Assembly: GCA_951406725.2 (NCBI GenBank)
Contig: OX597825.1
Location: 24,366,001 to 24,430,000, forward strand
DNA from: Octopus vulgaris
Lineage: Eukaryota
Direction of reading: 5' to 3'
Length of the DNA stretch: 64,000 nucleotides
A program made the position numbers and the translations under genes. The notes under the pieces were generated by a model that was not told the origin of the DNA, ran no database searches, and saw only the letters and a program-made list of their open reading frames with translations. This document shows, in pieces, positions 19,666-59,839 of the stretch (the first letter of the stretch is position 1; every line of letters begins with the position of its first letter).

Positions 19666-19764
19666 ACGTGTTTTGGTCAGTTTGACCAAAATTAGCAAGT
19701 AGGAGATATGCACCCAGTTCCAAACTGATTTGTATGTATATGTATGTGCATATATATATATATA

Positions 19765-20126
19765 TTATATTATATTAAATTAGAGATAAAACCACTATTA
19801 GGCAAATCAAACAATGAAAAACTTAAGCCAATACATAAAATTAATTAACTTATATTATTTTAAATATATCAAAAGTATTAAAAATTTAATAAAAGATAGT
19901 GTTTTACTCATTATCTTTTATTAAATTTTTAATACTTCTGATATATTTAAAATAATATAAATTAATTAATTTTATGTATTGGCTTAAGTTTTTCATTGTT
20001 TGATTTGCCTAATAGTGGTTTTTTATCTCTAATTTAATATAATATAATATTTTACTATAAAATTGGATTCAATCCTAAATCTGATTTTTCCCTGTAAGTT
20101 TGGATTTATTCCCTAATATTTTATTA
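19765..20126 (+). mobile_element. (TA)n-embedded fold-back element, family H2
   Basis: About 135-bp inverted arms (19765-19898 vs about 19912-20050) plus 3' tail; homologous to 57431-57687, 59232-59545 and, more distantly, 50791-51133. Confidence 0.9.
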
Positions 20127-20714
20127 TATATATATATATATATTCATTTCATTTCTTTTCATCTAGTTTCAGCTCAAAAGCTGTGGCCATGCTGGGGCAC
20201 CATATATATATATGTATGTTTGTATATATCTATATATGTATGTATGTATATTACTAGACTTATTGGGATTGATGTGTGCAGCTAAATCCTTCAAAGCAAT
20301 GCCCTAGCATAGCCACAGTCAAACGAGTAAAGCGATTGAAAGTTAGGAGATAAAAGATATATAAAGATAGACAGACAGATAGACGGACAGACCGACAGAC
20401 AGAGTTAGATAGATTCGTAGATAGCCAGACAGTGTGAGTGGGTGTGCGTGTACATGCATATGCATGTTTATGCATATGTGCATGTGCATATGTGTGTGTG
20501 GGTGGCTGGGTAGGTGTGCAGTGTAGATGGACGAATGGATTACAATATACATAGCAGTATAAATAAATATACTTTGAAAGCAAGATTTATCGAGGCTTGT
20601 AATATTTATATAGTCCTGACTATGATAATCACCTACAGCTATTTACATAACAGAATCTGAATTGTAAATGGTAATATATTACATACTATATATATATATA
20701 TACATACACACATG

Positions 20715-50605: not shown

Positions 50606-50735
50606 TACATACATAAACATATATATATATATATATGAAGTTCCTGGAGTAAATCTACATAAAACAACAGGTAGTCAAAACTGTGCTGGAGCTTTACTTA
50701 TCATCCATTTATACATTTTGTACAATTTCTCCATT

Positions 50736-50790
<55 letters not shown>

Positions 50791-50794
<4 letters not shown>

Positions 50795-51133
50795 TATTAG
50801 AGACAAAACCACTATTTTGCAAAACAAACAAGGAAAGACTTAATCAATACATAAAATTTTAATAAATTATTATTTGTATATTTTAAAATATTGATATTTT
50901 AGATTGAAGTCCACCTGAAGATTGTCGATCAAGACAAGAAACGATTGTAGTGGCGGTTTTTTTGACTATTTATTAAAATTTTATGTATTGATTAAGTCTT
51001 TCCTTGTTTGTTTTGCAAAATAGTGGTTTTGTCTCTAATAATATTTTATAATATTTTACTATAAAATTGGATTTAATCCTAAATCTGATTTTTTTCCCTG
51101 TAAATTTGGATTTATTCCCTAATATTTATTATT
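50791..51133 (+). mobile_element. (TA)n-embedded fold-back element (H2-related) with HHR in the loop
   Basis: Arms about 50797-50866 / 50968-51040, then 3' tail shared with 20050-20126. Confidence 0.9.
50911..50953 (+). ncRNA. Type-I hammerhead ribozyme, canonical minimal form
   Basis: ccac CTGAAGA ttgtc gatcaa gacaa GAAA c gatt g TA gtgg: complete core, stems I, II and III all pair. Confidence 0.9.
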
Positions 51134-51180
<47 letters not shown>

Positions 51181-51210
51181 CAAAATAAGCATGAAGGATA
51201 TCCAGAGGTA

Positions 51211-51299
51211 ATGCAGTATGATCGTTTCATGCAACTCCATTTAATTGAACAATGCAATCACTACATCAATTTAAAATGTAGAGCAATCTTCAGCTGCAC
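51211..51299 (-). ncRNA. Type-I hammerhead ribozyme with long stem II
   Basis: Minus strand: gtgcag CTGAAGA ttgc..gcat GAAA cgatca TA ctgcat; 6-bp stem I, one CpG-type change in stem III. Confidence 0.75.
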
Positions 51300-51574
51300 A
51301 AAGACACAGAATTTAATCAAATTAGAACAGATGGACACATTAGTATAATTATACCTAAAATCTCTAAGAAGTTAAGGAGATAGACAAAGAACATGGCTTA
51401 GAGAAGTTGACATTGACAGTGTTTATTCATAGAAACATTTTAACAAATCAGAGACATTGAGGGAGGATTTGGCTTCAATCAGGTATTGAAAAGCATCTGA
51501 TACTACAAACTGTTGTCCCACCTTAAATAATTTTTGCATAAAATTAAGTGTAAACTCAGATTAATAATGCTGTC

Positions 51575-51790
51575 ATGTTAGCACACTGGGCAAAATGCTT
51601 AGCAGTATTTTGTTTGCCGCTACATTCTGAGTTCAAATTCTGCCGAGGTCGGTTTTGCCTTTCATCCTTTCAGGGTCAATTAAATAAGTACCAGTTACTC
51701 ACTGTGGTCAATGTAATTGACTTAATGCCTTTGTCTGTCCTTTTTTGGTCCCCTGTATGTTTAGCCCCTTATGGGCAATACATAAATAAA
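51575..51790 (+). mobile_element. SINE family B
   Basis: Family B motifs. Confidence 0.85.
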
Positions 51791-51807
51791 TAAATATTAT
51801 TACTGTG

Positions 51808-52140
51808 AAGGTGCATGACTCAATGGTTAGTATGTCAGGTTCACAATCATGAGGTAGTGAGTTCAATTCTTGGACTGAGCTGCGTGTTGTCTTCTTGAGC
51901 AAGACACTTTATTTCACATTGCTACAGTTCACTCAGCTGTAAAAATGAGTTGCAACATCACTGGTGCCAAGCTGTATCAGCCCCTTTGCCTTTCCTATGG
52001 ATAACATCAGTGATGCAGAGAGGAGAGACTAGCATGCATGGGCAACTGCAGGTCTTCCATAAACAACCTTGCTTGGACTTGTGCCTTGGAGGGGAACTTT
52101 CTAGGTGCAATCCCATGGTCATTCATGACCAAAGGGAGTC
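51808..52140 (+). mobile_element. SINE family D, near full length
   Basis: tRNA-like head (tgactcaatggttag..gagttcaattc) + cttgagcaagacacttta core. Confidence 0.85.
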
Positions 52141-52267
52141 TTTACTCTTTCTTATTACAATTTTTGAGCAGGATTAAATTCAAATTACGTTATATTTGGA
52201 AATGGTCATATTCTGCCAATTGAACACATGCACTATACATTTGGTTATTAATTCAGCTATATTATTA

Positions 52268-52362
<95 letters not shown>

Positions 52363-52830
52363 GAGTGAGAGAGCAGTGCATGCCATCAATGTGACACTGG
52401 GGTAAAATATACAAAGCCCAGTATACCCCTCATGACTGCTCATCTGATAAGGGTACACTAGGCACATGCATCACAACCATATGAGCGCAACATGGTGATC
52501 TCATATTAAGATAAACAGCACATGACTTTGCAGGTGGGGCCCAGTTAGAATTTTCTTCTGGTCGAGTGACCCATCCCATTCAAAAGGTCCCTGAATAAGG
52601 TCTGTTTAAGGATATTCAATGAAATAACCCATGTTTCCAGAGGTGAATTATTCAAACCCCAAAGAAGCCCTCTCAATACATGGCTATGATGCTCCCCAAC
52701 TACTTCTGCTCATGATCAGAGATGCACATATCGGCAGCCACTAAGGGACATGCTCTACTGGTTAAGGTCAAACAACTGACAAGCAAATCTGTGGGATTGA
52801 GCAGAATATTTGCTGAAGCCCATCTTTTTA
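52363..52830 (-). mobile_element. Non-coding (TAA)n-tailed retroposon inserted in (TTA)n
   Basis: (TTA)n on both sides; rearranged opposite-strand relative at about 62470-62810. Confidence 0.75.
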
Positions 52831-53365
52831 TTATTATAATTATTATTGTTGTTGTTGTTGTTGTTGTTGTTCCTTTGTCAAAGCTCATTCATCACACCTC
52901 TTCAGCAACACTTTATCTGACACGTCTCCTCTTGTTTAGCATAGACCATTTTGTCTAGTACATAAACGAAAATTTAAATCAATACTGATATTCTTAATCT
53001 TCTTCATATTTTTGTCCATTGAGAATAAGAATGGTTTGAAGCTTGTCAATAAAATTCTTTACTTTTACTCTTCTTCTAACTCCACTTGAAGTGTAAAGTT
53101 TGTGAAATACTGATTTCAAATTTTGGCAAAAAAAAAAAGCCAAAAATCTCTGGGTGGGGATACGCCAACTCATCAACCCTGGTGTTCAATTGGTACGCAT
53201 TTTATCAACCCCAAAATAATAAACAGCTGAGTCAACCTCAGTGGAATTTGAACTCATAATATAAAGTTGGAAGAAATGCCAAAATGAGAATATTTAAAGC
53301 ATTTTCTTTCTGCATCTTTCTAAATATTTTTTCAATGGAATCTGACAAAGATTACAGCCTCACAT

Positions 53366-53529
53366 TTATTGTTGATGTACCCATGTGTGTTCTAATAATG
53401 AGTTTCCTGTCTGCACAATATATATTTCTTCATAATTTGGGCATTTGATCCAAGAGAAAGGATTTTCTGCTTTTACAGTTCTTATTTGCATTTGGAAAGA
53501 TTTTTCATCCAGTTTTTGTTGTTGAAATT
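53366..53529 (-). CDS. Candidate terminal exon, xFQQQKLDEKSFQMQIRTVKAENPFSWIKCPNYEEIYIVQTGNSLLEHTWVHQQ*
   Basis: Pyrimidine tract then ggtcag acceptor; non-repetitive ORF of more than 50 codons in phase 1; no recognised homology. Confidence 0.3.
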
Positions 53530-54374
53530 CTGACCAGTACATCATACCGACCAGTAAAGCAAGCATGCAAATAGAAGGGAGAAAGAAAAACAAATACAGA
53601 AAATAAAAAAAAAATGAACATACAAGGTGGTGCTCCAGCATGGCCACAGTCAAATGACTGAAACAAGTAAAAGAGTAATACAAAAAAAGGGACAGAAGAG
53701 AATTAAGAGAAAAATTGAAGAAAAATTTGAGAAAAATTTCAGGGAAATAATTATGATAAAACTCTCATTAAAATTTTATTTGTTTCAGAGAAGAAAATTA
53801 CTGAGGCACATGGAGGGGAAAGAGGAATGCAGTAGAAGTGGATGCGAAGTGTATACATGGAAGGGAGGGAAAAAAAGGGGAAAAGAAAATTCAAGAAAAA
53901 ATTAGAAAAAATAGGAACAAGGGAGTTCAGGGATACAAAATTAAAAGAAAATTAGAGAGAAATTAGAGAAAGATTAGGGAAAATTTGGAGAAAAATAATT
54001 ACATTATAATGTTGATTAAAAAAGATTATAAATATAAATGAAAATACGATGCTGTTGAAAAATGCAGTGAGGTGTGCATCTGATGCAGAGACTCAGGAAG
54101 TAGGAAATGGTAAGAAGATTGGAAATGGAAAATACTGTCTGAATAGAATCTGTCTACCAAATCTACTCACACACCATTGATTAGCCAGGGGCTCTAGTAG
54201 AAGACACTTGCCCAAAGTGCCACACAATGGACTACCCAATAAGGGCTTAAATGGCTGAAACTTCGAAGTCATTGTCAACAATATTCTTGTATAAGAATAA
54301 TGATATTTTACTCTACAAAAGTATAAAGTAACCCATCAGATTAATGTAAAATTGTTTTTATTTTGACCGGGACA

Positions 54375-54565
54375 ATTGTTAGCATGCTGAGCAAAATGCT
54401 TAATGGCATTTCAACTGTTGCTATGTTCTGAGTTCAAATTCCGCCAAGGTCAACTTTGACTTTCATCCTTTCAGGGCCAATAAATTAAGTACCAGGTAAG
54501 TACTGAGGACAAGATAATCGATCCCCTCCCCCAAATTTCAGGCATTGTGCCTATAGAAGAAAAGA
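54375..54565 (+). mobile_element. SINE family B
   Basis: Family B motifs. Confidence 0.82.
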
Positions 54566-54586
54566 TTATGACTGAACTTAAAAACA

Positions 54587-54631
<45 letters not shown>

Positions 54632-54632
<1 letters not shown>

Positions 54633-54925
54633 GGGCATTATATACATGCCAGAAGGTATTATACATACATGCCAAACGCTAAGAGGGACAATTAGTCATT
54701 TCTGGGATTAGTAATATTTTTGGTAGAAATGACTAATTGTCCCTCTTAGCGTTTGGCATGTATGTATAATGCCTTCTGGCATGTATATAATGCCCTCTAT
54801 ATATAAATTAATATATTCAATAAGAAATAATTATTTTCGAAATTTTTTCTCTTATGAGGTTCTTACGCTATCTACCTGACAATTTCTTGTTAAGTTTTCC
54901 TTATTAAGTAGTTGTCCTTAATTGC
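54632..54925 (+). mobile_element. (TA)n-embedded fold-back element (72-bp arms + tail)
   Basis: 54632-54703 is the near-perfect reverse complement of 54725-54796. Confidence 0.88.
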
Positions 54926-54954
54926 TATATATATATATATATATATATATGGTT

Positions 54955-55222
54955 CCCTGAGCCGGTGGCATGTAATATACATCATCCGAATATGGTCGAT
55001 GCCAGTGCCACCTGACTGGCTCGCATGCCGATGGCATGTGAAAAGCACCCACTACACTCTCAGAGGGGTTGGCATTTAGTAAGGGCATCCAGCTGTAGAA
55101 ACCTTGCCAGATCAGATTGGAGCCTGGTGCAGCCTCCTGGCTTGCCAGTCACCAGTTAAGCCATCCAACCTATGCCAGCATGGAGAATGGATGTTAAACG
55201 ATGATGATGATGATGATGATGA
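54955..55222 (+). mobile_element. Retroposon family C
   Basis: Two head units, core and (GAT)n tail. Confidence 0.85.
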
Positions 55223-55230
55223 TATTTGTA

Positions 55231-55289
<59 letters not shown>

Positions 55290-55320
55290 ATATGTATATA
55301 TATATATATATATATATACA

Positions 55321-55587
55321 CTTTTTCCTCCTCCTCTTTTACCTTTTTTCTCCTACTTCCACTTTTCCACTTGTGTTGCCACCACTTACACCTACACAAA
55401 AATGTGACCGCGTGTGTACCGTTGGCGATTTTTTCTCCTCTGTCTTTCATTTTCCTATGTTTCTGATGAAGAGCTCCGCTCGAAATGTTAAACCCTCCTT
55501 CTTTCCTTCTTTCCTGAGCGTCCAATAATACTATATTTGTTCCACATCCTCACGTTGTTGTGTTTTTTTGTGCTTTCTTGTTTGGAT

Positions 55588-55592
<5 letters not shown>
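55321..55592 (+). mobile_element. HHR element family H1 (longer 5' end)
   Basis: Homologous to 31056-31243; (TA)n on both sides. Confidence 0.9.
55459..55493 (+). ncRNA. Minimal type-I hammerhead ribozyme (H1)
   Basis: gttt CTGATGA a gagc tcc gctc GAAA tg TT aaac. Confidence 0.75.
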
Positions 55593-55631
<39 letters not shown>

Positions 55632-55854
55632 ATTGTGGGGGTTTGATGACCCCATAAAGCTGCTAGTATTTGGCATGTGGAGCTTTCAACTGAGAGAACT
55701 TGCATCTACAAGTTGTTTGCAAACTATATATATATGTATGTATGAGCCATCCTCCACACCAGAAGTGTTACGGTCACACACCCCACCACCACCACTCCCC
55801 ACCCCCCACCACTCCCCAGTCCCCTGTGAAGAGGCTTGGCCTACAAGAGTCCTC

Positions 55855-56103
55855 TACTGGTGCCATGTAAAATGCGTTCATGCTACTGCCACACAAAAGT
55901 GCTCGTGTACTGCCATGTAAATGCAACCAGCACACCCTGTAAAGTGTTTGGTGTTAGGAAGGGCAACAAGTTGTAGAAAACATGCCAAATCAGATTGGAG
56001 CCTGGGGAAGCTTCCCAGCTTGACAGCTCTAGTCAAACCATTCTCCACGTGCCAGCATAGAAAGTGGACATTAACTGGTAAGGATGATGAAGATGATGAT
56101 GAT
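55855..56103 (+). mobile_element. Retroposon family C, diverged
   Basis: Core and (GAT)n tail. Confidence 0.75.
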
Positions 56104-56126
56104 ATATATATATATATATATATATA

Positions 56127-56199
56127 TGAAGAGAAAGACACAATATGGTCTCCTTATTCAATGGGAATTTGGTAAATTGTGGCTTTCGAAACACGTGTA
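56127..56199 (+). ncRNA. 5'-truncated hammerhead ribozyme in a (TA)n-flanked insert (56127-56265)
   Basis: TGAAGA gaaag a cacaat..attgtg g ctttc GAAA cacgtg TA; C3 and the 5' strand of stem I are replaced by (TA)n. Confidence 0.7.
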
Positions 56200-56260
56200 G
56201 AATGCAATAAAACGATTTCTGTTCAATCTTCGTTCAACTCCATTTCTTCAATTCACTAAT

Positions 56261-56290
<30 letters not shown>

Positions 56291-56291
<1 letters not shown>

Positions 56292-56698
56292 GGCGTAGGA
56301 GTGGCTGTGTGGTAAGTAGATTGCTTATGAACCACATGGTTCCTGGTTCAGTCCCACTGCATGGTACCTTGGGCAAGTGTTATCTACTATAGCCTTGGGC
56401 CAACCAAAGACTTCTGAGAGGATTTGGTAGATAGAAACTGACAGAAGCCCATCGTATGTATGTATACATATGTGTATGTGTGTGTGTGTGTATATGTTTG
56501 CGTGTCTGTGTTTGTCCACCCAACATCACTTGACAACTGATGCTGGTGAGTTTACATCCCCGTTACTTAGCAGTTCAGCCAAAGAGACCAATAGAATAAG
56601 TACTAGGCTTACAAAGAATAAGTCCTGGGGTCAATTTGCTCAACTAAAAGTGGTGCTCCAGCATGGCCAGAGTCAAATGACTGAAACAAGTAAAAGAG

Positions 56699-56700
<2 letters not shown>
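56291..56700 (+). mobile_element. SINE family A, full length
   Basis: Reference-quality copy with A/B boxes, internal microsatellite and tail. Confidence 0.92.
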
Positions 56701-56729
<29 letters not shown>

Positions 56730-56738
56730 CTCTCTCTT

Positions 56739-56769
<31 letters not shown>

Positions 56770-56796
56770 TTATAAATATACATATACATACATACA

Positions 56797-56832
<36 letters not shown>

Positions 56833-57309
56833 TATATTTGATTACAAGGGATCCATAAAGAATCAAAGAATAAGGAAATGAAGGATGTCTCTAGTTGGCC
56901 AGACAGAATCCTGCAAAGCAGACAGTTGCATAATCCATTACCATATCATGGAAGGCATTGAGGAAGAAAGTTCACTGCTGTTTGGTAGTCTGCAATTCCG
57001 ACAGCGTCTGAAAATATCTGATGATAAATGGAACTTTAAGCATGGCTTCAAAGCATCAAAACAGACAAATAGGTTATCTGGTATAACTACAAATGTTTCA
57101 GTAGGAGTTTTTATTTTGACATAAGCATAATATAATGTGTTAGACAGTATAATATGTTACTACACAACCTCACTAATTGTATTATTCTTGCACCGAAGCA
57201 CCAAAGCAAAATCTTCTAATGGAACAATTGTAGCAATACCGGATAAACCATTCCTCTGTCTTATATATTTGAATATATATATTTGTATATATAAATGTAT
57301 ATATATATG

Positions 57310-57348
<39 letters not shown>

Positions 57349-57389
57349 ATATATATATATGTACACATATATATATGTTCACATACATA

Positions 57390-57430
<41 letters not shown>

Positions 57431-57437
<7 letters not shown>

Positions 57438-57684
57438 TATATTATATTAAATTAGAGATAAAACCACTATTAGGCAAATCAAACAATGAAAAACTTAAGC
57501 CAATACATAAAATTAATTAATTTATATTATTTTAAATATATATCAAAAGTATTAAAAGTTTAATAAAAGATAATGAGTAAAACACTACGATCGTTTCATG
57601 GCTGTCCAATTCATAATAATTTGAGTTATGGTTACAGTCAATCTTCAGGTAATTGAAATATCAGACTCTATATTCTATATTCCA

Positions 57685-57687
<3 letters not shown>
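57431..57687 (-). mobile_element. Family H2 copy carrying the HHR
   Basis: Near-identical to the 19765-19898 arm, extended through the ribozyme; (TA)n on both sides. Confidence 0.9.
57581..57654 (-). ncRNA. Type-I hammerhead ribozyme (H2)
   Basis: Minus strand: aattac CTGAAGA ttgactgt..acagccat GAAA cgatcg TA gtgttt; palindromic ACGATCGT stem/loop III. Confidence 0.8.
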
Positions 57688-57740
<53 letters not shown>

Positions 57741-58039
57741 ATGATAAGAGTAAATAATTTCTATAAAGGCTTTTAAAAAAACCTCAATTATTTACTGGTA
57801 GAATTCGGTATGTAAATATAGCCGATTACTGGCAGGAACTTCTGTAAAGTTCAGTATATATATTGTATATAAGAAAAAGGGACAGGCAAAACAGGTTGCT
57901 TGACCGCATACCGAAAAAATAGAAATAGCAGTCAAGAATGCTTATTTCTATCAAAGTTGGACTCCGGGCATGACAGACCCTGTAATTCACATATGCAAAA
58001 CAGAAGGAATAGATAACGAATACGAAGTCTGGTGGTTAT

Positions 58040-58792: not shown

Positions 58793-59231
58793 CTTTCCAT
58801 TGAAAAAGATTTATCATAGATTTATCAAATGCTACGTACCTCAAACCTTCTGACCATGCGACATCAAAATATTTGAAGAAAGTGAGCAAAGGCTAAACCT
58901 ACATAGACGTTTGAATTCATAAATCTTCCCTCCAAAATTTTGCCATGCGCATTACAAAAATAGTTCCGTAAGATGGGGAACAATTAGGTTGTCAAAGGGA
59001 GTGAAAAATCCAAATAGTAATATAATGATAAGAGTAAATAATTTCTATAAAGGCTTTTAAAAAAACCCCAATTATTTACTGGTAGAATTCGGTATGTAAA
59101 TATAGCCGATTACCGGCAGGAACTTCTGTAAAGTTCAGTATATATACAATATATATACTGAACTTTACAGAAGTTCCTGCCGGTAATCGGCTATATTTAT
59201 ATTTATATATAGATATATATATACATATATA

Positions 59232-59424
59232 TCAAATTAGAGATAAAACCACTATTAGGCAAATCAAACAGTGAAAATCATAAACCAATACATAGAAATA
59301 AAATTAATTGATAAAATATATAAAATATAAAATTCAAAATTTAAATTATTTAAATTTAAAGTTAAAATTTTAAAAAATATTTAAATTAATAATTTATACT
59401 TATAAATTTTTATATATATATATA

Positions 59425-59489
<65 letters not shown>

Positions 59490-59545
59490 TTATTATTATT
59501 TTTTTTTATACATATAACTATCAAAAAGTATTAAAAGTTTAATAT
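59232..59545 (-). mobile_element. Family H2-related fragment interrupted by microsatellites
   Basis: aattagagataaaaccactattaggcaaatcaaaca..tatcaaaaagtattaaaagtttaata. Confidence 0.7.
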
Positions 59546-59839
59546 AATATATATATATATTGTGGAGGCGCAATGGCAGCAGACTTTCTTCTGTTGGCCT
59601 GCCCACTTAGCCAGCAGAGTGGCATCATTTGAAGGCTAAAACAATGCGAAGCGCATTGTGGCCAGCGATGTGTAGCAACATCTGATAGCCTGGTCAATCA
59701 CGGTGACAGTGATATGTATTTATGTATGTATATATATATGTTGGGGCTCACGGAGACAATAACGAAGACCTTTGGCACTATGTCATGCTTGAGCAGAAGA
59801 CCCATCAAACTGAGTGAAAGCACAGTCATGGAAGATATT

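What the first reader, a model, noticed from the sequence alone, without database searches (positions are those of the whole stretch)
19765..20126. Insertion junction coincides with the predicted ribozyme cleavage site
Seen: in the H2 copy at 57431-57687 the HHR predicts cleavage at cgatcgUA/GUGUUUUACUCAUUAUC. In this copy the inverted arm ends at ..aaaagata (19898) and the direct arm starts exactly with gtgttttactcattatc (19899), with only a 2-nt 'ta' microhomology ambiguity. Inference: the reverse-transcribed RNA had its 5' end made by self-cleavage. This would be a genomic fossil showing that the ribozyme was active in vivo and defines the transposition template.
Basis: partly seen in the sequence, partly recalled or inferred. 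Interest (0 to 1): 0.8.

Follow-up and report, generated by a model that had tools for sequence, protein, structure and literature searches.

The report
Hammerhead cut marks retrotransposon insertion ends
This short insertion of a Penelope-like jumping gene starts at its ribozyme's predicted cut site, and across the family copy starts pile up just downstream of that site and drop about tenfold upstream, which likely means self-cut RNA is often the template copied into the genome.

Summary
The coordinates are right. 19762-20126 is a two-arm insertion of a Hydra-clade Penelope-like element (PLE), and its direct arm starts at the predicted hammerhead cut (19899, with 2 nt of TA ambiguity). One copy proves little.

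Of 152 arms sampled without regard to their 5' end, 56 start at -3..+20 (0.020 per nt at risk) and 4 at -27..-4 (0.002): ratio 10.7, p 3e-10, best change point -3. Only 8 start at -3..+2; the mode is +11..+13. A sister family (91 arms) shows the same cliff, 5.8-fold. Copies of spliced RNA show the same edge-and-smear at their inferred transcription start. Base composition and alignment creep do not explain it.

Most likely about a quarter to a third of cDNAs run off self-cleaved RNA and lose 0-20 nt on joining. However, 92 of 152 arms read through the site, so cleavage defines only one template class. A reverse-transcriptase stall at the folded ribozyme is not excluded. A search for the upstream cleavage product was inconclusive, and no RNA read ends were available.

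The parts
19762..19898 (-). Inverted arm: pLTR fragment from +13 (relative to the hammerhead cut) to the tail-less 3' end
   Evidence: blastn 95% to the H2 copy; (row WIN: ends -2 and +13, overlap 2)
19897..19898 (.). 2-nt TA shared by both arms (junction ambiguity)
19899..20050 (+). Direct arm: pLTR fragment starting at the first base after the predicted hammerhead cut
   Evidence: aligns to the H2 copy from 57587-57585 downward, 96%
20051..20126 (+). PLE 'tail' present on the direct arm only (inferred second reverse-transcription start)
   Evidence: same tail on many genomic copies at 95-100%; tail concept from PMC11167929
19897..19913 (.). Imperfect 5-bp palindrome around the junction (alternative annealing or fold-back site)
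   Evidence: read from sequence
19751..19765 (.). Left (TA)n target run
20126..20143 (.). Right (TA)n target run
57431..57687 (-). H2 reference copy: single tail-less arm that reads through the whole hammerhead
57583..57651 (-). Type I minimal hammerhead: CUGANGA box 57648-57642, GAAA 57597-57594, palindromic stem III, GUA triplet, predicted cut 57586|57585
   Evidence: no Rfam hammerhead match
50764..51135 (+). Two-arm insertion of the sister family (H1); its direct arm keeps the intron end and the whole hammerhead (cut before about 50950)
59205..59551 (.). Degraded related pLTR fragments

Best explanation
This is a two-armed insertion of a Hydra-clade Penelope-like retrotransposon whose direct arm was likely copied from RNA already cut by the element's own hammerhead ribozyme. 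Shown: both arms are fragments of the element's pseudo-LTR lying in (TA)n; family 5' ends form a cliff at the cut site; a spliced class has a second edge further upstream. Inferred steps: (1) the endonuclease nicks both strands in (TA)n, and two cDNAs start at the two internal RT starts (tail and tail-less ends); (2) each cDNA runs towards the RNA 5' end, which is either the transcription start (uncut RNA) or the hammerhead cut (about 25-33% of arms); (3) the cDNA 3' ends are joined to each other or to the target with loss of 0-20 nt, often at short microhomologies, which smears the edge downstream (median +11). Cleavage is probably partial and protein-assisted, and it yields short promoterless, ribozyme-less copies like this one. 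The chance that this particular arm belongs to the cliff class rather than background is about 70-85%.
For:: 56 ends in 2832 positions at risk at -3..+20 vs 4 in 2163 at -27..-4 (ratio 10.7, p 3e-10); best change point -3, likelihood support -4..0. The rate at -3..+2 (8/582) is above upstream (p 9e-4); after collapsing identical junctions (150 arms) 55/2799 vs 4/2139; bootstrap change point median -2, 72.5% within -4..+3; simulated uniform ends are recalled flat (7.9-8.2 per nt, true 8); the cliff holds for arms joined to a partner arm (25 vs 2) and to flanking DNA (31 vs 2); the spliced class shows the same shape (28 ends, median 8 nt from the furthest end, vs median 11 from the cut); genome-wide 380 pattern hits for ends at about -3..+21 vs 23 for about -15..-4 (different anchors, so only rough); sister family 24 ends at -3..+28 vs 4 at -41..-4 of 91 arms (ratio 5.8, p 1e-4), although its cut lies 31-32 nt from the anchor versus 76 in H2.: +21..+60 is more AT-rich yet has 0.003-0.007 per nt; invariant catalytic boxes and compensatory changes across 10 subfamily copies. 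Helix II's 3' edge (about -14) shows no comparable pile (2/892 at -23..-14). PMC11167929: a PLE hammerhead cleaves in vitro only when PLE protein is added.
Against: No sharp peak: -3..+2 is not above +3..+20 (p 0.91), and the bootstrap upper bound reaches +10. In the sister family the best change point is +6 (support -6..+7), with only 2/618 at -3..+5, which also fits a stall at helix I. 92 of 152 arms read through the site. In the first, partly overlapping sample 0 of 60 H2-type arms ended at -3..+2, and the drop in the E subfamily is weaker (0.020 vs 0.008, n=40). By eye, junctions to (TA)n at -14/-13 are about as common genome-wide (about 10) as at -2..0 (3 in the first 100 of 380). The H2 ribozyme has a U-U mismatch at 10.1-11.1 instead of the usual G-C, and ViennaRNA does not fold it as a hammerhead (z 0.76). 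PMC11167929 found that hammerhead mutants do not change insertion in vitro and saw no RNA-seq reads starting or ending at the cut in Anolis.
Confidence: 0.6

Rival explanations
1. The RNA is uncut, and reverse transcriptase stalls at the folded, dimerised or protein-bound hammerhead (helix I or the palindromic stem III duplex); the cDNA end is then trimmed and joined.
For: It predicts almost the same edge. The stem III palindrome forms an 8-bp intermolecular duplex of -10.0 kcal/mol in H2 and -6.4 in H1 ending at -2. The sister family's edge is at +6/+7, just 3' of its GC-rich helix I strand, with stutter-like repeats at several junctions. The median offset from +3 would equal the offset seen at the transcription start.
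Against: Helix I in H2 is weak (-2.2 kcal/mol). Helix II (-6.8) makes no comparable pile at its 3' edge. Ends at -3..+2 are about 7 times the upstream rate, which a stall at +3 would not give. The same smear appears at the inferred transcription start, where no stall is needed.
Confidence: 0.27
2. The pile-up reflects sequence composition: AT-rich cDNA ends join (TA)n targets and AT-rich partner arms more easily than the GC-richer ribozyme core.
For: -27..-4 is 54% AT against 83% at +3..+20. TA dinucleotides at +6 and +13 are local hot spots. Long microhomologies occur at two-arm joins (4 of 18 with 4 nt or more, by eye).
Against: +21..+60 is 90-95% AT with more TA steps but a 3.5- to 10-fold lower rate; -45..-24 is 73% AT and also low.
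Confidence: 0.07
3. A second transcription start or a cryptic splice acceptor lies at the cut site and makes RNAs that start there without cleavage.
For: An AG dinucleotide sits at -1/0, and broad start-site clusters give smeared 5' ends (general knowledge).
Against: None of the 152 arms shows exon 1 joined at +1. There is no pyrimidine tract upstream. The edge recurs in subfamilies with different downstream sequence.
Confidence: 0.06

Closest known systems
Hydra-clade EN+ Penelope-like elements (Craig et al. 2021, PMC8557442; passages read)
   Same: RT followed by a C-terminal GIY-YIG-like endonuclease; CxCx5C linker; CxxC before the conserved E; (TA)n targets; hammerhead in the pLTR; inverted 5'-truncated arm; tail on one end only.
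   Different: The tail here is about 75 nt (30-40 bp is described as typical). The paper calls hammerhead function in EN+ PLEs unclear; the passages read do not map 5' ends against the cut. No tree was built here.
[quoted passage not shown]
   Same: Short helix I, long helix II, 2-bp helix III with a palindromic loop (dimer type); an intron ending just 5' of helix I as in D. virilis Penelope.
   Different: No G10.1-C11.1 pair here (U-U, U-A or A-U instead). That paper states it had no in vivo evidence of cleavage.
Poseidon PAc of Anolis carolinensis (Frangieh et al. 2024, PMC11167929; passages and second half of main text read)
   Same: Two internal RT starts define the tail; both strands are primed; AT-rich targets; protein-assisted hammerhead.
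   Different: [quoted passage not shown] The genomic 5'-end cliff here suggests that cut RNA is a substantial minority template in vivo. Their Fig. S2 (supplement) was not seen.
R2 retrotransposon HDV-like ribozyme (Eickbush et al. 2013, PMC3774820; abstract read)
   Same: A ribozyme cut sets the template's 5' end, and 5' junctions are variable through chance microhomology when the cut is at the element's end.
   Different: Different ribozyme class and retroelement class. In R2 the cut defines full-length elements; here it affects only about a third of arms and removes the promoter side.

Membership tests
Hydra-clade PLE | RT ORF with a C-terminal GIY-YIG endonuclease directly upstream of the 3' pLTR | tested here: inconclusive
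   L013/L251 carry a 5'-truncated, frameshifted ORF with RT-like and GIY-YIG-like motifs by eye, directly upstream of the same pLTR. Pfam gave no RT or GIY-YIG hit and PDB no hit.
Hydra-clade PLE | CxCx5C linker, CxxC before the conserved E | tested here: met
   Both motifs are present in L251:7689-8336; definition.
Hydra-clade PLE | Insertion into (TA)n | tested here: met
   Window flanks and most loci read.
Hydra-clade PLE | RWK and DKT motifs; placement in the RT phylogeny | not tested
   The one ORF copy read lacks its N-terminus; no tree was built.
PLE (general) | pLTR, inverted 5'-truncated arm, tail on one end | tested here: met
PLE (general) | Spliceosomal intron near the promoter, with both spliced and unspliced copies | tested here: met
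   L029 and L037 show a GT..AG intron (about 1 kb in L029) that is precisely absent from the spliced copies.
Type I minimal hammerhead ribozyme | CUGANGA and GAAA boxes, UH triplet | tested here: met
   Invariant in 10 of 10 subfamily copies chosen for an intact core.
Type I minimal hammerhead ribozyme | Helices I-III with covariation; palindromic loop 3 | tested here: met
   83% of 160 cells paired, 5 pairs changed on both sides, slid controls 20-56%. The sequences are related, so the shuffle counts are not probabilities.
Type I minimal hammerhead ribozyme | G10.1-C11.1 pair (highly conserved per PMC4209133) | tested here: not met
   A-U 3, U-A 2, unpaired 5 of 10 (columns 19-85); U-U in H2.
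Type I minimal hammerhead ribozyme | Match to an Rfam hammerhead model | tested here: not met
   None at gathering threshold in the window or up to E 5 in 50700-57800.
Type I minimal hammerhead ribozyme | Self-cleavage activity | not testable with these tools
   Needs an in vitro assay or RNA end mapping.

The most novel reading that the evidence does not exclude
PLE hammerheads cleave in the germline inside the retrotransposition particle, and the genome records it. About a third of new cDNAs run off the cut, so the ribozyme acts as a built-in brake that turns promoter-bearing templates into dead stubs. One locus (L402) with a 32-nt foreign piece exactly at the scissile bond, copied into both arms, may even record cut-and-religated RNA. 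Mapping 5'-end cliffs would then be a general way to read ribozyme activity in vivo from assemblies alone.
Probability: 0.45. Interest if true: 0.72.

Novelty: new variant of a known kind. Interest (0 to 1): 0.52.

Why it matters
The role of the hammerhead in endonuclease-bearing Penelope-like elements is described as unclear (PMC8557442). The first paper had no in vivo evidence (PMC4209133), and the in vitro reconstitution found cleavage dispensable and no RNA ends at the site (PMC11167929). A tenfold cliff of insertion 5' ends at the predicted cut, in two families, is indirect genomic evidence that the ribozyme shapes templates in the germline. It gives a cheap test that can be run on any assembly with many PLE copies, and a clear mutant experiment. 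The element itself is an ordinary member of a known class.

Tried and rejected
1. Reciprocal fossil (copies whose 3' side breaks at the cut, which would record the upstream cleavage product): inconclusive. Breaks exactly at the cut were 3 of 5 hits, 2 of 3, 1 of 10 and 5 of 15 (2 of the 5 in noisy sequence, 2 more hits were 1 nt off; loci read). A control TA in the same TA|GTGG context with no ribozyme also had 7-8 such breaks among 38 hits, a similar rate on estimated denominators. An upstream control window gave 1 duplicated event. A downstream control was swamped by another subfamily (426 hits). A further upstream TA control in the H2 family was not obtained.

2. RNA evidence: no RNA holder listed on record, and no raw reads. 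Contigs of 4 guessed-RNA runs covered 24-26 of 28 bins with no joints and no start or end piles; contigs cannot show ends.

3. Rfam: no hammerhead match; nothing for the L402 insert family. Pfam and PDB: no RT or endonuclease hit for the ORF pieces.

4. Microhomology at two-arm joins is only modestly above chance: 2 nt or more in 8 of 18 usable pairs by eye, out of 37 rows (other-subfamily and misaligned rows and the window's own row dropped), against about 31% expected. So the window's TA cannot be called annealed or accidental.

5. Fold-back of one cDNA: disfavoured because the inverted arm's outer end is the family's usual tail-less end.

6. Palindrome-centre deletion: rejected because the cliff is present in arms joined to flanking DNA.

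7. Alignment creep: rejected.

8. A pile at -34 was a loop II insertion variant and vanished with better references.

9. No copy with the tail running on into an ORF was found among 149 loci.

10. Literature searches listed no paper whose title or abstract reports PLE 5' junctions mapped against the hammerhead cut. Subscription papers and supplements were not seen. Earlier scan findings: none.

Full report
Observation. The window lies in a 2.8-Gb assembly (G000:C12:24366001-24430000). 19762-19898 is an inverted and 19897/9-20126 a direct fragment of the repeat also found at 57431-57687. The direct arm begins at the base after the GUA triplet of the hammerhead in that copy (57586|57585), with 2 nt shared by both arms. 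The two arms share derived changes against the H2 copy (a C-to-T and a 2-nt deletion), so they likely come from one source. Both ends lie in (TA)n, and only the direct arm has the 75-nt tail.

What the repeat is. Its 3' part has 771 exact anchor matches in the genome. One copy lies directly behind a 5'-truncated, frameshifted ORF with RT-like and GIY-YIG-like motifs and a CxCx5C linker. With the (TA)n targets this fits Hydra-clade PLEs (PMC8557442, passages), although Pfam and PDB gave no hit and no tree was built. Other copies carry a GT..AG intron (about 1 kb in L029) upstream of the ribozyme, and a spliced class lacks it precisely. Ten subfamily copies keep the catalytic boxes invariant and show compensatory changes in helix II and the palindromic loop 3. 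The 10.1-11.1 pair is not G-C, and Rfam has no match. The inverted arm plus one-sided tail is the standard PLE insertion form.

The family test. I sampled arms by an anchor at +21..+46, blind to their 5' ends: the first 100 of 877 hits and the first 52 of 121 hits. 5' ends were called by anchored alignment to natural copies. Ends per position at risk were 24/1269 at +12..+20, 24/981 at +3..+11, 8/582 at -3..+2, 1/916 at -13..-4, 2/892 at -23..-14, and 0.004-0.007 from -24 to -63. The ratio of -3..+20 to -27..-4 is 10.7 (p 3e-10), and the best change point is -3 with support -4..0. Bootstrap median is -2, with 72.5% within -4..+3 and an upper bound of +10. Simulated uniform ends are recalled flat. 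The cliff holds for arms joined to a partner arm and to flanking DNA. Genome-wide exclusion patterns gave 380 hits for about -3..+21 and 23 for about -15..-4 (different anchors; by eye about 7 of the first 100 were intact copies leaking through). There is no sharp peak: -3..+2 exceeds the upstream rate (p 9e-4) but not +3..+20 (p 0.91), and the mode is +11..+13.

Controls. The region +21..+60 is more AT-rich but has 0.003-0.007 ends per nt in an earlier, partly overlapping sample of 60 H2-type arms; in that sample no arm ended at -3..+2. The spliced class gives an internal picture of a defined RNA end: 28 ends, 27 of them from -104 to -86, median 8 nt from the edge, against a median of 11 from the cut. 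That this edge is the transcription start is inferred; two spliced copies outside the sample reach a few bases further. The sister family H1 (4797 hits; 91 arms from the first 74 Mb of C1) has 24 ends at -3..+28 and 4 at -41..-4 (ratio 5.8, p 1e-4). Its edge fits best at +6 (support -6..+7), just past a GC-rich helix I strand. The E subfamily (40 arms) shows a weaker drop (0.020 vs 0.008).

How much. The excess over background is 36-50 of 152 arms, or 24-33%. 92 of 152 arms read through the site, so uncut RNA is the majority template, in line with the in vitro result for Anolis PAc (PMC11167929). For this copy, the at-site rate against the upstream rate implies a 70-85% chance that it belongs to the cliff class. 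Microhomology at two-arm joins is too close to chance to say whether its TA was annealed. If it was, this cDNA ran 2 nt past the cut.

Cleavage or stall. A stall at the folded ribozyme predicts nearly the same edge. Against it: helix I is weak (-2.2 kcal/mol), helix II (-6.8) produces no comparable pile, and ends at -3..+2 are elevated. For it: the stem III dimer (-10.0) ends at -2, and H1 fits +6. I looked for the reciprocal fossil, copies ending at the cut on their 3' side. 11 were found among 33 hits (32 distinct; read in 56 and 64), but a ribozyme-free TA in the same context breaks at a similar rate, so this test is inconclusive. One locus, L402, has a 32-nt piece of another repeat family (145 matches) exactly between -1 and 0, and both arms copy it. 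It is a single case. No raw RNA reads were available.

Comparison. It works like R2, whose HDV-like ribozyme sets the template's 5' end and gives variable microhomology junctions (PMC3774820, abstract), but in a PLE with a hammerhead and for a minority of templates. The papers read leave PLE hammerhead function in vivo open. My searches listed no report of this 5'-end cliff; subscription papers and supplements, notably Fig. S2 of PMC11167929, were not seen. A 2026 preprint on retrozymes derived from PLEs (10.64898/2026.07.22.740005, part 1 of 5 read) does not address it in that part.

Verdict. The locus is an ordinary PLE stub. The family-wide cliff at the predicted cut is real and is most likely the record of partial self-cleavage in vivo (0.6), with a reverse-transcriptase stall as the main rival (0.27).

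Noticed in passing
L402 / L410 (G000:C12:30435831-30435902): A 32-nt piece of another (TA)n-targeting two-arm repeat family (145 matches at up to 3 mismatches) sits exactly at the H1 hammerhead cut, with no deletion of element sequence, and both arms copy it. It may record RNA religation or template jumps at the scissile bond.
   Followed up: partly
L029, L037, L058 versus spliced copies (L014, L022, L059): An intron (about 1 kb in L029) ends shortly 5' of helix I. Spliced and unspliced retrocopies coexist, and spliced ones mostly stop within 20 nt of an inferred transcription start.
   Followed up: partly
L161, L213, L223 and others: A subfamily with a 22-nt insertion in loop II; several copies have lost the intron's AG acceptor, and all long copies read were of the unspliced type.
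   Followed up: no
L316, L317, L320, L326, L356, L358: H1 junctions just downstream of the cut carry stutter-like tandem recopies of a short T/A-rich unit, resembling templated insertions of microhomology-mediated joining or RT slippage.
   Followed up: no
L411-L419: A further abundant two-arm, (TA)n-flanked repeat family with a long one-sided extension, possibly another PLE; no Rfam match in 6 loci.
   Followed up: no
L251:6422-8336 (G000:C11): 5'-truncated, frameshifted PLE ORF with Hydra-type linker; a LINE-like RT fragment (by eye) lies at L251:2-862.
   Followed up: partly
L385, L367, L370: Copies with an internal deletion starting exactly at the cut and resuming at about +5, +24 and +17; L385 has no microhomology.
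   Followed up: partly
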